A stretch of DNA of 63,725 nucleotides, the filler included, from Octopus bimaculoides (lineage: Eukaryota), in the NCBI RefSeq assembly GCF_001194135.2. It is 5 parts of 5 records of this genome, joined end to end, with 100 filler letters (N's around TTAATTAATTAA, not from the genome) between each part and the next. Parts side by side here need not be neighbours in the genome. Positions count along the whole stretch, not along the records: positions 1 to 26,361 come from NC_068989.1; positions 26,462 to 48,035 come from NC_068990.1; 3 more parts are not named here. The stretch is one strand, 5' to 3'. Both the position numbers and the translations under genes were made by a program. Numbering within the stretch: position 1 is the first letter of the stretch; the number at the start of each line of letters is the position of its first letter. Shown here one piece after another: positions 10,546-45,646 of the stretch. The notes under the pieces are model-generated. The model did no database searches, was not told the origin of the DNA, and saw nothing but the letters and a program-made list of their open reading frames with translations.

Positions 10546-12202
10546 TAGACTAGTAGAGCTTGGTACTATGTACTGTACTTTTGTTAATTAATTTAGATGT
10601 CCGTGTAGTCGGGAGCACTACACTCTAGTCACTTTGACGGCTCTCCCACCTAAGATCCTGCAAAACATTCTGATAGAGATGGCTGCACCGGCACTCAGCT
10701 GGTGCTCAACTGCAACCGAGCAGACAGAAATAATGAAATCCTTGCGTTGCCTCTCGTAGGAATGGAACCTACGAACTTCATGAACAAAAACTGATTATCC
10801 TAACCAGTCGGCACACACCGTCACAAGGCATAATAAATGCTGATGTAAAATAATTTATCAAAAAATTCAGTTTTGTCCCAGGACTTCTAACAGGCAAGGC
10901 CCAACAACTGTGTTAAACACAACGCTGTTTTTTCTATTATTTGTTTAATGCTATAATCAATTAAAGCAAATCGTTTTTTATAACTAGGGCAACAGAATGC
11001 AATATGAATATGAATGTCCACCACAGATTTATTTATCTAGCTGCTTCTAATTTAGGCACCATGATTTTGGGAGGACAAGCTTAGGCGATCATACTCCTCC
11101 CAATACGAGAATGGCACTTTGTTTTAAACTACCCCAATCAAATTAAAAGCAAAACTGATCTCGGTGGCATTTGATTCCACAAAGTAAAGAGCTTAAAGAA
11201 AAAAGTACCGGAGTGAATTTGTTCCAATAAACCCATTCAAGTTGGTATTACAGCATGGCCTCAGCCAAATGACTGAAACAAGTAAATGATAAAACATTCG
11301 TGTGTTGAAGCAAATTCTGTTGTGTCTGGGGAGAGTCATTCTCTTTTGGTGCCTTATAATTTAACACACTCATCGGAAAAAATTTCCTCTTATTTTTTTT
11401 TTTTTTTTNNNNNNNNNNNNNNNNNNNNNNNNNNNNTATATATATATATATATATATATATATATATATATATATGGTAAATGAAAGACGGAAGATGGAA
11501 GATATGAGAATTTTTATTAATCATTACAATTGTTTCGACACCTCTAGCATCGATCCCTCACGGGTAGCATACTTAACGACTGATTCAGAAGCATCCGACG
11601 GTGCAGGTGTGTCTCTTCGAGTGATAAATAGATATAACTAGTTGAAATAACAGTTCCGCAATGTATCTTCTCATTTCGTGTGAAGAAAAGCAGCAGATTA
11701 AAGGATATGTCTTCATTTATATCGAAGATCGATAATAAAATAGCAGATGTAAAAAATAAAGGAACACGCAACACAGCGAGAAAAGTATTAAAAATGACTT
11801 TTAACAAATATGGATGTATAAAGGCCCTCGTGCAAGATCAGGTGCTGAACATATGGCCTATACAAATTATATATCGGGACAATACAAGATAAATCCCGAG
11901 AAAAACGTGAAGAAGGTGGAGGCAAATTTTGGCGTATTTGGAACAGAAGTCATTAAAAGTTGTGAAAGTAACAATCTAATCAATGGTGTTGTTTTTTTCC
12001 TTTTACTGCTACTTATCCTAAAGAAGCAGCTTTAATGCGTTGCATTTTTTCTTATATTTCTAGCAAATCAATGTATAAATGTTTATCGTTGTGCATGTGT
12101 ATATATACATACATATATATGTGTGTGTGTGTGTGTGTGTGTGTGTGTGTGCGCGTGCGTCTGTGTGTGTGTGTGTGCGCGTGTGTGTGTAATTTTTTAA
12201 AA

Positions 12203-12430
12203 TCTCTTTTACTTGTTTCAGTCATTAGACTGGAGCTATGCTGTTGCACCGCTTTGAAGAACTTTTAGTCGAATGAATCGACTCCAGTACATATTTATTT
12301 TCACCTTTTAAGTCAGGTACTTATTTTATCGGTCTCCCTTGCCGCACCGCTAAGTTATGGGGACGTAAACACAATAATACCGGTTCTCAAGCAGTGATGG
12401 TGGAACAAACACAGCCACAAACACATACGT
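12203..12430 (-). mobile_element. SINE family A, 3' half
   Basis: Tail module ending at a CA tract. Similar 3' halves at 23950-24170(+), 33885-34110(-), 45255-45445(+), 58850-59055(-), 63505-63590(-). Confidence 0.75.
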
Positions 12431-12574
12431 AAATATATATATAAACACACACACAAATACATAAATACACACACACACATTCATAAATACACACACACAT
12501 GGACACAGATACACACACATATATATGTATGTATGTATGTATCTATCTATCTATCTATATATATATATATATGT

Positions 12575-13494
12575 AATAAATAGTGACAGAAGCAGTATTA
12601 ATACCAAAAGGTAATATATATCTCCCACCAAAAGTGGATGTTCTGTTAGAACAAAGAATACTGCGTTATTTACCATGAAGCGACAGCCGTCCACTAAGTT
12701 CACCGCAACTGACAGATTACGTGATGTCACCCTTCTTTATGCTTGTCAGTTACAAACGTTCAGCGAGTTCATAAAAGCCTAGTCAACTATATATAGAATA
12801 TCAGCGTCTATTGGGGGCACTGGCATCGCAAATAGCCTGTAAGTTATTTTAAAATACAATTAATAGTGACAGAAGAAGTGTTTTTTCTGCTCTAGGCACA
12901 AGGCCCGAAATTTGGAGGAGGGCCAGTCGATTAGATCGACTCCAGTACACAACTGGTACTTAATTTATCGACCCCGAAAGGATGAAAGGCAAAGTCTACC
13001 CCGGCGGAATTTGAACTCAGAACGTAAGCGATAGAAAAGTATTAGTACTAAAAGGTAGTGTTTATCTCCCATCTAAAGTGGGTGTTGTGTTAGAACAGAG
13101 TGTACTGCATTATTTTCCATGAGAGAACCTCTCATATGAACTCGTGGTGCATAAAAACTCTCAGATTTATATGGCTGACTGGTGATAAGCGTCAGTGACT
13201 ATCACTGGAACAACCAGTTCACATACTTTCGCGCTTTCTTGGGCTCGTCAAGAAGAGACGTCCAGCAGGGACACAGGAGCTGATTCTGGCCCCCAACGAT
13301 ATATAGAATATCAATGTTTGTTTTCAGGTACTGGCATCGTGAATAACTTGTAGAGCTATTGAATATTCATTGATAGCACCACAATCCACATGAGAAATCT
13401 TCTCACGGTAAAAAACGCAATATTTTAATTTCTAACTTTAAGTGGGAAATAAATATCACATTTTGGTGCTAATACTGCTTCTGTCGCTATTATT
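12575..13494. mobile_element. Long-TIR non-autonomous element with tandemly duplicated left part
   Basis: AATAGTGACAGAAGCAGTATTA.. at 12579 and 12862; about 100-bp reverse complement at 13395-13494. A SINE B is inserted in the second copy. Confidence 0.6.
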
Positions 13495-43064: not shown

Positions 43065-43290
43065 GTTAGTGATGCATTCACGATCGCAAGATTGTGGCTT
43101 CAGTTCCCGGACTGGGCGATGCGTTTGTGTTCCAGAGCAAAAACACTTTATTTCAAATTGCTCCAGTCATCTCGGCCGTAAATGATTAACCCTGTGCAGA
43201 CTGGCAGCCCGTTCTGCTCGACTGTTTTGATTTCGGCCTCTTATATGCTGTAGAAACCAGGAAACTGGCTCTGTGATTCCTCCCAACTTG
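43065..43290 (+). mobile_element. Diverged tRNA-SINE (V-SINE-like centre)
   Basis: B-box-like TTCAGTTCCCGG, then TTGCTCCAGTC..AACCCTGTGCAGACTGGCAGCCCGT..TAGAAACCAGGAAACTGG. A weaker relative lies at 5325-5500. Confidence 0.5.
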
Positions 43291-45609
43291 AGACAGTAAT
43301 GCCCGGCGGTTGATAACGATAATATTCTTTTCTACTAGTACGGCGTGCTGGCAGAAACGTTAGCACGCCGGGCGAAATGCTTAGCGGTATTTCGTCTGTC
43401 TACGCTCTGAGTTCAAATTACGCCGAGGTNNNNNNNNNNTCTACGCTCTGAGTTCAAATTACGCCGAGGTCGACTTTGCCTTTCATCCTTTCGGGGTCGA
43501 TTAAATAAGTACCAGTTACGCACTGAATTCGATGTAATCGATTTAATCCCTTTGTCTGTTCTTGTTTGTCCCCTATATGTTTAGCCCCCTGTAGGCAATA
43601 AATAGATTAATATTCTTTTCTACTCTAGGCACAAAGCCCAATATTTTTGTGGAGGGGGCCAGTCGATTAGATTGACACCCGTACACAACTAGTATTTAAT
43701 TCATCGACTACGAAAGGATAAAAGGTAAAGTGGACCTCAGCGGAATTTGAACTCAGAACATACAGACAGATGANNNNNNNNNNNNNNNNNNNNNNNNNNN
43801 NNNNNNNNNNNNNNNNNNNNNNNNNNNNNNNNNNNNNNNNNNNNNNNNNNNNNNNNNNNNNNNNNNNNNNNNNNNNNNNNNNNNNNNNNNNNNNNNNNNN
43901 NNNNNNNNNNNNNNNNNNNNNNNNNNNNNNNNNNNNNNNNNNNNNNNNNNNNNNNNNNNNNNNNNNNNNNNNNNNNNNNNNNNNNNNNNNNNNNNNNNNN
44001 NNNNNNNNNNNNNNNNNNNNNNNNNNNNNNNNNNNNNNNNNNNNNNNNNNNNNNNNNNNNNNNNNNNNNNNNNNNNNNNNNNNNNNNNNNNNNNNNNNNN
44101 NNNNNNNNNNNNNNNNNNNNNNNNNNNNNNNNNNNNNNNNNNNNNNNNNNNNNNNNNNNNNNNNNNNNNNNNNNNNNNNNNNNNNNNNNNNNNNNNNAAA
44201 GGTAAAGTGGACCTCAGCGGAATTTGAACTCAGAACATACAGACAGATGAAATACCGTTAAGCATTTTACCCGGCATGCTAACGTTTCTGCAAGTTTGCC
44301 GCCTTTGATAACGATACTATTAGGTGATGAACTCGTTTCATTAAATCGTTAAAAAATTAACTCGGTATAATTCTAGAGCTTTTAACTCGCTTTTACTAAT
44401 ATTAATAGCTTAATCATTCCTGATTTTAAGAAAAACAATTATTTCATATTTTGCATACAACGCGCAGGAGTGGCTGTAAGGTACCGGGTTCAGATGACTG
44501 CGTGGCAGCTTGGGCAAGTGCCTTCTCCTATAGCCTCAGCCCGATCAAAATCTTGTGAGTGGATTTGGTACACGGAAACTGAAAGAAGTCCTCCGTCGTG
44601 TATATATATATATATATATATACACACGGACACAAACACACATATATACACACACATAGAGATGTGCACAGAACCAGTCCCAAAAACCAGTGAACCATGA
44701 CAGACTGTCACAGACCAACCAAAAATTAAAAAATCTTCTTTAACTCTTCTTCCCTCCCACCCCAGCTAGCCAGTCATACTGTCTCTTAAGACAGTAAAAC
44801 ATTCCTTCAATATACACAAGAGAAAAAGGCCAGGTCAGTTCCTTCTCAATTTTATTCGATTGTCAAAGAATATGTATGAGAATATGTATATGTATATGTA
44901 TTTTTCCATATGTGTATTTTCATACACTGTTTTTAACAATTTCACCTTAATATGACAATCAGTATGTAACACTACAAAGTTCATACAAAGCTTTATACTT
45001 TAAATATATTTTATCATCAAAGAATGTATATATGCATTTTAATACTCAGACTGTTTTTTAACATTTTTTATTATTCTCAAAGACTTTTGATAATCTTTTT
45101 CTAAAAAAGTGAAACCGGTTAAGTAAATAAATATTTTTTAAAAATAAGTGCATTTTCAAACCTTCTTTCATATATATTTCCACTCGTACGGTATTCCACA
45201 ACTTTACTTTATTATATATATATATATATATACATACATACATAATATATATATTTCCCCACCATCGCTAGACAGCTGATGCTGGTGTGTTTACGTCCCC
45301 GTAAATTAGTGGTTCGACAAAAGAGACCGATAGAATAAGTACTAGGCTTACAAAGAATGAGTCCTGGGGTCGATTTTCTCGACTAAAGGCGGTGCTCCAG
45401 CATGGCCACAGTCAAATGACTGAAAGGAGTAAAAGAGTAAAAGAATAATCATCAACAGATAACGATGTGTATGTTTGTATTTCACACGCTGCTGTACATT
45501 AGAACTGAAAGACATTCGTTGCGGAACATTTCTTTCGGAGGAGATTTATCCTTTTACATGTGTGTAAAAATCATCAACTCAGGTACAGAATGACGTCAGT
45601 GGTCTGAGA

Positions 45610-45646
45610 GTCACACGTTTCGAAATGACAACATCTCCTCAGTGAC
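45610..45646 (-). ncRNA. Minimal type-I hammerhead-ribozyme-like motif (cleavage position mutated)
   Basis: GTCA CTGAGGA GATG TTGT CATTTC GAAA CG T G TGAC. Confidence 0.5.

What the first reader, a model, noticed from the sequence alone, without database searches (positions are those of the whole stretch)
11520..45646. Six dispersed hammerhead-like motifs with different helix-III palindromes
Motifs at 11520-11625(-), 23136-23174(+), 31261-31305(+), 32329-32367(-), 38980-39031(-) and 45610-45646(-) share the order CUGANGA-like core, stem II, GAAA-like, palindrome. The palindromes are ACAAUUGU, AGCGC[G], AUCGA[A], ACGU, ACCGGU and ACGU, while flanks and stems differ. Several abut (TA)n/(CA)n tracts. 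Inference: several distinct PLE pseudo-LTR or retrozyme-like families have left ribozyme relics across this genome, roughly one per 10 kb here. All six deviate from consensus by 1-2 changes.
Basis: partly seen in the sequence, partly recalled or inferred. Interest (0 to 1): 0.72.

Follow-up and report, generated by a model that had tools for sequence, protein, structure and literature searches.

The report
Penelope hammerhead relics with altered cores
Five of the six motifs are worn-out copies of five different repeat families, likely spread by Penelope-type jumping genes, which are known to carry this small self-cutting RNA; the one less ordinary point is that two of the families multiplied with a changed letter in the catalytic core, which is predicted to slow cutting.

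Summary
Real, and mostly a known kind. Motifs 1-5 each belong to a separate dispersed repeat family (69-2,047 first-look candidates each); motif 6 has no relative found. Motif 1 is the 3' end of a Hydra-clade Penelope-like element (PLE). Motifs 3 and 5 are non-coding head-to-tail units of about 300 and 480 nt (retrozyme type). Motifs 2 and 4 are probable PLE tails; the link to coding sequence is indirect. Four window copies carry core damage, motif 4 a shortened stem I, motif 6 a G at the cut site. A genome sample holds at least one copy per 25 kb. The less ordinary result: families 1 and 4 have C4 instead of U4 as the ancestral state (canonical-looking copies of family 1 fit CpG decay), and a sister of family 4 outside the window has U6 instead of A6 (2,442 exact matches), while other sisters are canonical. 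I found no print report of this for PLEs but could not read the likeliest paper (Lunse 2017). The scan noted PLE/retrozyme hammerheads in this genome and U4C/A6U families in other genomes before. No cleavage or circular RNA shown.

The parts
11476..11830 (-). Family M1 stump: 5'-truncated 3' end (pseudo-LTR) of a Hydra-clade Penelope-like element; 3' end abuts (TA)n at 11437-11475
   Evidence: 84% over 378 nt to the longer copy L023, which carries the endonuclease remnant upstream; TRF
11520..11625 (-). Motif 1 hammerhead relic: long stem II arm (about 75 nt), palindrome ACAAUUGU; family core has C4; this copy also has C3U and a broken first stem I pair
23136..23250 (+). Family M2 stump with motif 2 (23136-23174): palindrome AGCGCU in the family; this copy has a broken stem II (C11.1 lost) and U16.1 to G; lies between microsatellites
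   Evidence: sister family lies about 750 nt 3' of a Neptune-like endonuclease
31084..31380 (+). Family M3: one nearly whole unit of a non-coding head-to-tail repeat of about 300 nt (retrozyme type); motif 3 (31261-31305) has a canonical 5' core but G12A, a broken palindrome and a broken stem I; 5' side runs into an assembly gap
   Evidence: 79% over 301 nt to the dimer in L222, period 307
32262..32600 (-). Family M4 stump with motif 4 (32329-32367): minimal hammerhead, core with C4 as in 23 of 25 family copies, palindrome ACGU; a deletion just 5' of the core shortens the 3-bp stem I; 3' end abuts (TG)n
38800..39085 (-). Family M5: partial unit of a non-coding head-to-tail repeat of about 480 nt (retrozyme type); motif 5 (38980-39031) has a canonical 5' core, palindrome ACCGGU, but G12A and a 7-nt deletion in stem I
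45610..45646 (-). Motif 6: orphan hammerhead-like motif, exact CUGANGA, 4-bp stem I, palindrome ACGU, G at the cleavage position; no relative found
46079..46280 (-).
   Evidence: 64% over 212 nt to the M3 unit, E 4e-16; M3 profile hit E 4.7e-9

Best explanation
Motifs 1-5 are decayed, solitary leftovers of five separate repeat families, one of which lies directly behind a Penelope-type endonuclease and all of which were likely copied into the genome by Penelope-type reverse transcriptase and endonuclease; none of the window copies is predicted to cut. Shown: family membership; fixed 3' ends with ragged 5' ends; mirror-image and tandem partial copies; 3' ends running into microsatellites; family 1 sits 3' of a Hydra-clade endonuclease frame; families 3 and 5 are non-coding tandem units; core CpGs decay like other CpGs, so copies are not maintained after insertion. 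Inferred from the literature: in the parent RNA two hammerheads pair through the palindromic helix III and cut a tandem precursor into unit-length RNA, which is then reverse-transcribed at an endonuclease nick in a microsatellite; most insertions are 5'-truncated and keep only the ribozyme-bearing end. Shown for families 1 and 4: the parent elements carried C4. Inferred: such cores still cut, but slowly, and slow cutting was enough for thousands of insertions.
For: Families. M1-endonuclease link: 10 of 30 M1 loci hit the Hydra-like protein P0001; 13 of 15 loci picked by the endonuclease fragment carry the M1 hammerhead about 400 nt downstream on the same strand (one more has only an inverted copy, one none); the 457-aa frame in L220 has the RT thumb, a CxCX5C linker and the CxH motif, as described for Hydra PLEs (PMC8557442 section 11). 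Microsatellite after the 3' terminus: M1 10 of 29, M2 12 of 16, M3 10 of 17, M4 12 of 20 copies with a located terminus, against 339 of 5,000 random positions. Tandem periods: M3 307 and 270, M5 480 and 461; longest ATG frames 39 and 60 aa. Inverted copies: L230 (M1), L229 and L233 (M2), L223 and L231 (M5). C4: M1 positions 4-5 read CG 31, TG 9, CA 11 of 54 copies, like 11 other CpG sites; M4 C4 in 23 of 25. In M1 the free positions vary (N7 A 32, U 11, C 9; position 17 A 25, C 20, U 5, G 2) while C4 persists in each group, as expected if parents stayed under hammerhead-like constraint. Strict descriptor: 9 hits in the 708-kb sample, 0 reversed, 0 in 3 shuffles.
Against: No cleavage, RNA end or circle was shown; three RNA runs of one study gave 122-133 reads (M5) and 140-198 reads (M3) per about 1.8 Gb, in both directions, with no pile-up at the predicted cut. 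M2 and M4 are not tied to their own coding frame: for M4 a same-strand endonuclease or its 3' flank lies 1-2.5 kb away in 3 of 25 loci without shown continuity; for M2 only a sister family is linked. No intact PLE frame was found. Pfam found no RT or GIY-YIG family in the 11 frames scanned. In the genome-wide M1 pattern, my hand count of the 100 listed of 154 matches gave CG 52, TG 31, CA 16, TA 1: the excess of TG over CA leaves room for a minority subfamily with U4. M4 copies were picked by likeness to the window copy, which favours C4. No compensatory change was seen within the M4 clan (0 of 8 pairs). M5 3' ends are not one fixed point (0 of 20 followed by a microsatellite at the first terminus tried; they end at varied points further on). 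Motif 6 is unexplained by any family.
Confidence: 0.85

Rival explanations
1. In the C4 and U6 lineages the hammerhead no longer cuts; the fold is kept as a binding or dimerisation signal for the element's own protein.
For: One scaffold occurs with three cores (canonical, C4, U6) while stems and palindrome stay unchanged. The U6 family has 2,442 exact 32-nt matches, none with A6 among the 100 listed. Stem I of M4 is 3 A-U pairs only. Naiad PLEs spread without canonical hammerheads (PMC8557442 passages). Changes at position 6 lower activity (A6C, PMC3088659 section 8).
Against: N7 and position 17 vary and G17 is rare in M1 (2 of 52) and absent in 17 held U6-scaffold copies, and the other core letters are kept, which fits continued catalysis. 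U4C is reported to keep enough activity for viroid infectivity (PMC3088659 passage).
Confidence: 0.25
2. The motifs are chance matches to a short, loose pattern in AT-rich, repeat-rich DNA.
For: The loose descriptor yields 4-16 hits per shuffled window; Rfam reports no hammerhead among the 150 listed of 212 window matches, none at gathering score in 15 family loci and none in two short stretches.
Against: Five motifs have families whose majority restores core, stems and palindrome; strict descriptors give 0 in controls. The rival stays open only for motif 6.
Confidence: 0.03
3. The window copies are active or host-adopted ribozymes, or templates of abundant circular RNAs.
For: Intact canonical cores survive in some copies elsewhere (M5 15 of 26, M3 7 of 27); family reads occur in RNA runs.
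Against: Each window copy is solitary; M1, M2, M3 and M5 have core damage, M4 a cut-down stem I, M6 G17. Reads are few, in both directions and mostly run on into unlike flanks (77-88%), as for passive transcription of scattered copies.
Confidence: 0.04
4. M3 and M5 are not independent retrozymes but pseudo-LTR stumps of coding PLEs whose tandem look comes from re-insertion.
For: They show the same insertion marks as PLE stumps; retrozymes are proposed to derive from pseudo-LTRs (bioRxiv 10.64898/2026.07.22.740005).
Against: The same tail-to-head junction recurs in independent loci (M3: L222, L232, L083, L086, L089; M5: twice in L224, L223, L039, L056), no coding sequence lies within the unit, and no endonuclease hit was found in the M3 or M5 loci.
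Confidence: 0.2

Closest known systems
Minimal type I hammerheads in pseudo-LTRs of metazoan Penelope-like elements (Cervera and de la Pena 2014, PMC4209133; read: parts 1-2 of 4 of the text and supplement passages; supplement file 1 could not be searched)
   Same: Type I layout, palindromic helix III, G10.1-C11.1, extra base after A9 in M4 and M5, thousands of solitary copies in several families per genome, few within full elements.
   Different: Families M1 and M4 have C4, and an M4 sister has U6; the paper's named core variant is U3-A8, and CCGA occurs twice in its searchable supplement, neither time in a core. M1 has a stem II arm of about 75 nt.
Hydra-clade PLEs, including Hydra-1_Obim (Craig et al. 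2021, PMC8557442; read: passages, section 11, supplement parts 2-3)
   Same: C-terminal endonuclease without CCHH, CxCX5C linker, CxxC and CxH motifs, (TA)n targets, hammerhead in the 3' end (family M1).
   Different: M1 is a different family from Hydra-1_Obim (other stems and palindrome); all Hydra hammerheads listed in File S2 have a CUGA core, M1 has CCGA.
Metazoan non-LTR retrozymes (Cervera and de la Pena 2020, PMC7229834, passages and discussion; Li, Clavereau and Pollet 2026, bioRxiv 10.64898/2026.07.22.740005, parts 1-3 of 5)
   Same: Non-coding head-to-tail units with a type I hammerhead (M3 about 300 nt, M5 about 480 nt); proposed mobilisation by PLEs.
   Different: These families are old (copies 3-22% from the majority), mostly monomers or dimers; no abundant or circular RNA seen in the runs laid; cephalopods are not mentioned in PMC7229834.
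Natural hammerhead core variants U4C (viroid) and A6C (phage Bcep176) (Perreault et al. 2011, PMC3088659; passages and section 8)
   Same: Same positions changed; reported as slower but not dead.
   Different: Here the change is the parent state of retroelement families with hundreds to thousands of copies, and the position-6 change is to U.

Membership tests
Hydra-clade PLE (family M1) | C-terminal GIY-YIG-type endonuclease after the RT, hammerhead 3' of it | tested here: met
   Pfam GIY-YIG itself hit only the relative P0002 weakly (E 0.016), not the genome's frames
Hydra-clade PLE (family M1) | CxCX5C linker; CxxC and CxH around the endonuclease end; no CCHH | tested here: met
   L220 frame and L012 frame read against PMC8557442 section 11
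Hydra-clade PLE (family M1) | RWK and DKT motifs in the N-terminal part | tested here: inconclusive
   seen in the relatives P0001 and P0003; the matching part is broken or missing in the genome copies fetched
Hydra-clade PLE (family M1) | Insertion at (TA)n; tandem and inverted partial copies | tested here: met
   10 of 29 termini followed by a microsatellite against 339 of 5,000 random places; L185 tandem, L230 inverted
Hydra-clade PLE (family M1) | Canonical hammerhead core | tested here: not met
   C4 in 45 of 54 copies; treated as a variant, since the protein features define the clade
PLE minimal hammerhead (M1, M2, M4) | Palindromic helix III and G10.1-C11.1 pair | tested here: met
   family majorities
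PLE minimal hammerhead (M1, M2, M4) | Core CUGANGA | tested here: not met
   M1 and M4 have C4; M2 is mixed (CUGAAGA 6, UUGAAGA 5, AUGAAGA 4 of 23)
PLE minimal hammerhead (M1, M2, M4) | Location in the pseudo-LTR of a coding PLE | tested here: inconclusive
   met for M1; for M2 only through a sister family; for M4 circumstantial, 3 of 25 loci
PLE minimal hammerhead (M1, M2, M4) | Self-cleavage as a dimer | not testable with these tools
   needs an assay
Non-LTR retrozyme (M3, M5) | Non-coding head-to-tail units of a few hundred bases, hammerhead in each unit | tested here: met
   periods 307/270 and 480/461, longest ATG frames 39 and 60 aa; some units are decayed
Non-LTR retrozyme (M3, M5) | Type I hammerhead with canonical core | tested here: met
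   intact core, GAAA, palindrome and H17 in 7 of 27 (M3) and 15 of 26 (M5) copies; loop 1-loop 2 contact not tested
Non-LTR retrozyme (M3, M5) | Abundant linear and circular unit-length RNA | tested here: inconclusive
   few reads, both directions, no end pile-up at the cut in three runs of one study; library selection unknown and small circles may be lost
Hammerhead relic of any family (motif 6) | Relatives with shared flanks; non-G base at position 17 | tested here: not met
   single copy; G17

The most novel reading that the evidence does not exclude
In this genome Penelope-type elements repeatedly changed 'invariant' hammerhead core letters (U4 to C in at least two unrelated scaffolds here, A6 to U in a third lineage) and still multiplied to thousands of copies beside sister lineages with canonical cores on the same scaffold, because their ribozyme acts mainly as a folded, dimerising RNA signal for the element's protein and needs little or no cutting.
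Probability: 0.25. Interest if true: 0.7.

Novelty: new variant of a known kind. Interest (0 to 1): 0.36.

Why it matters
The role of hammerheads in Penelope-like elements is stated to be unclear (PMC8557442 passage; PMC4209133 discussion). One 40-nt scaffold found here in three states (canonical, C4, U6), each amplified, gives matched natural constructs for asking how much cutting these elements need. It also shows that censuses built on CUGANGA miss whole families (4 of the 9 strict hits in the sample had C4) and that canonical-looking copies of such families can be CpG-decay products. The relics themselves are ordinary genomic debris.

Tried and rejected
Rfam: no hammerhead family among the 150 listed of 212 window matches, none at gathering score in 15 loci or in two short stretches; uninformative for minimal motifs. 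First strict descriptor had no controls and was replaced. The 1,064-aa 'open frame' at G000:C1:127.9 Mb was mostly an assembly gap. Motif 6: DNA search, two patterns, blast of its flanks and a regular expression over held loci found no relative. Walking upstream of M4: the three longest copies stop after about 850 nt of CA-rich sequence. The Hydra-like N-terminal piece near M2 in L233 is separated by unrelated sequence and was rejected as a link. No M2-M5 copy lay downstream of 30 GIY-YIG loci within 1.5 kb; 2 of 20 longer ones carried an M2 sister. Run search: no RNA holder listed. Covariation in the M4 clan: none. Literature searches for the variant cores in retroelements: 1 paper, viroid U4C; 0; 0; octopus plus hammerhead or ribozyme: (only a count of 235 hammerheads in giant squid, PMC6962438 passage, and Craig 2021). 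Lunse, Weinberg and Breaker 2017 (PLE short-stem-III hammerheads) is not held; I saw only its citation, and it or its supplements may already list these cores. Earlier-findings look-ups by sequence for M1 and M5 returned nothing.
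Full report
Setting. The window is a pack of five stretches. Motifs 1-2 map to G000:C9, motifs 3-6 to G000:C10. G000 has 2.34 Gb in 145,327 contigs and is dense in microsatellites. That it is an octopus is my inference from these traits (recalled) and from earlier notes of the scan; no call names it.

Observation. The six strings are there. So hammerheads are really common in this genome, but the window copies are too worn to be recognised by pattern alone. DNA searches settle it: motifs 1-5 have 2,047, 69, 1,007, 1,018 and 477 first-look candidates (40 scored each), and the family majorities restore core, stems and palindrome. 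Motif 6 has no relative; a descriptor fitted to it afterwards hit 0 of 300 shuffles, so it is probably an orphan relic with G at the cut site. A seventh, older M3-type unit lies at 46079-46280. The sample holds at least 28 family copies at 24 sites, 13 of them the seeds of the search, or one per 25 kb; the window has 5 in 57,853 bases, with a library that includes its own families.

Family M1. Copies share a fixed 3' end about 55 nt after the ribozyme and are cut short at the 5' side. The longest carry an endonuclease frame upstream; 13 of 15 loci chosen by that protein piece have the M1 hammerhead downstream on the same strand. A 457-aa frame in L220 shows the RT thumb, a CxCX5C linker and CxH, and its database relatives carry RWK-like and DKT motifs: the marks of the Hydra clade (PMC8557442 section 11). 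It differs from the published Hydra-1_Obim hammerhead (File S2). No intact frame was found, and Pfam named none of the 11 frames scanned.

Families M3 and M5. Both are non-coding units joined head to tail with the same junction in independent loci: periods 307 and 270 for M3, 480 and 461 for M5, longest ATG frames 39 and 60 aa. Their cores are canonical; 7 of 27 and 15 of 26 copies keep core, GAAA, palindrome and a non-G base 17. M5 also forms mirror-image arrays (L223, L231). This fits non-LTR retrozymes (PMC7229834), which a 2026 preprint derives from PLE ends. RNA reads are few (122-133 for M5, 140-198 for M3, per about 1.8 Gb, three runs of one study), come in both directions, mostly run on into unlike flanks and do not pile up at the predicted cut; the library type is unknown, so small circles are not excluded.

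Families M2 and M4. M2 forms fold-back insertions whose inverted copy stops about 45 nt short of the direct copy's end, like the tail described for PLE insertions. A sister family with the same palindrome and a 75% alike 3' end lies about 750 nt behind a Neptune-like endonuclease in 2 of 20 loci. M4 has an 850-nt CA-rich arm; a same-strand endonuclease or its flank lies 1-2.5 kb away in 3 of 25 loci, without shown continuity. Their PLE origin is likely, not shown.

Microsatellites. A purine-pyrimidine run of 10 or more follows the 3' terminus in 10 of 29 (M1), 12 of 16 (M2), 10 of 17 (M3) and 12 of 20 (M4) copies whose terminus was located (of 30, 18, 20 and 25; duplicate loci L055, L112, L119 dropped), against 339 of 5,000 random places; for M5 the first terminus tried gave 0 of 20, and its ends lie at varied points further on. 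This matches the known target bias of PLEs.

State of the window copies. Against their family majorities: M1 has C3U and a broken first stem I pair; M2 has lost C11.1 and U16.1; M3 has G12A, a broken palindrome and stem I; M5 has G12A and a 7-nt stem I deletion; M4 keeps the family core but a deletion shortens its stem I. Core CpGs decay as fast as other CpGs. All are solitary. They are predicted to be inactive.

Core variants. In M1, positions 4-5 read CG 31, TG 9, CA 11 of 54 copies, like the 11 other CpG sites; among 23 copies mostly picked by the endonuclease 12 have CG, 3 TG, 5 CA. CA cannot come from TG in one step, so the parent had C4 and U4-looking copies fit CpG decay. A genome pattern gave 154 matches and 0 controls; my hand count of the 100 listed is CG 52, TG 31, CA 16, TA 1, so a minority U4 subfamily is not excluded. 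A sister of M1 (L226) has U4 and a palindrome changed on both sides. M4 has C4 in 23 of 25 copies (picked by likeness to the window copy). The M4 scaffold occurs in three states: C4 (3 rows), canonical (4 rows), U6 (7 rows), with no compensatory change in its 8 pairs. The U6 family is outside the window: 2,442 exact 32-nt matches, 0 controls, and by hand count U6 in 97, C6 in 3, A6 in none of the 100 listed, with all four bases at position 7; one copy lies about 140 nt behind a GIY-YIG frame end. In M1 and in the U6 family positions 7 and 17 vary and G17 is rare or absent, which suggests that the parents were still under hammerhead-like constraint. U4C is known from a viroid as slower but sufficient, and A6C from a phage as slow (PMC3088659). 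I found no print report of such cores fixed in PLE families (none in File S2 of PMC8557442, or the searchable supplement of PMC4209133), but Lunse et al. 2017 could not be read and one supplement file of PMC4209133 was not searchable.

Mechanism. Shown: families, ends, targets, the M1 coding link, tandem non-coding units, decay, parent core states. Inferred from PMC4209133 and PMC6765202 (passages): tandem precursor RNA, dimer formation through the palindrome, slow cutting, reverse transcription at an endonuclease nick, 5' truncation. I put 0.85 on this account and about 0.25 on the bolder reading that cutting is dispensable in the C4 and U6 lineages.

Earlier notes of the scan. Notes on other pieces of this genome reach the same family-level reading, notes on other genomes report octopus retrozymes with PLE marks, U4C families and A6U families. 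They are unchecked AI notes and are not counted as support; one gave the lead to the 2026 preprint.

Verdict. A correct sighting of a known kind of debris, with a family-level core variation that makes the role of PLE hammerheads testable. Interest 0.36.

Noticed in passing
L238-L249, L140:6692, L149:4579 (not in the window): A sister family of M4 with U at core position 6: 2,442 exact 32-nt matches genome-wide, none with A6 among 100 listed; in L241 about 140 nt behind a GIY-YIG frame end.
   Followed up: partly
L147:7284, L160:5938, L167:1804, L183:1347: Further hammerheads with C4 on other scaffolds in the unbiased sample (4 of 9 strict hits); two of them (L147, L160) are one family.
   Followed up: no
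window 49422-49496 and 50192-50260 (+): Two near-identical C/D-box-like stretches (C box and CUGA, shared flanks) about 770 nt apart, weak SNORD27 matches below the gathering score; perhaps intronic snoRNA paralogues or a small duplication.
   Followed up: no
window 46079-46280 (-): Old M3-related unit with destroyed core, 64% over 212 nt.
   Followed up: yes
L291:3939-4074 and L299:3653-3757: The M2 sister behind a Neptune-like endonuclease has a 5' core reading UUGACAA, which would be the U3-A8 covariant described for schistosome PLEs.
   Followed up: no
L250-L279: None of 30 loci with a C-terminal GIY-YIG frame showed a hammerhead by my descriptor within 1.5 kb downstream; gaps, long 3' arms or atypical motifs may explain it.
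   Followed up: partly
window 45261-45450 and about 18 other places: A very abundant short repeat of about 185 nt (SINE-like) recurs throughout the window and the sample.
   Followed up: no
window 6631-7464: 15-nt purine-rich tandem array, 55 copies.
   Followed up: no
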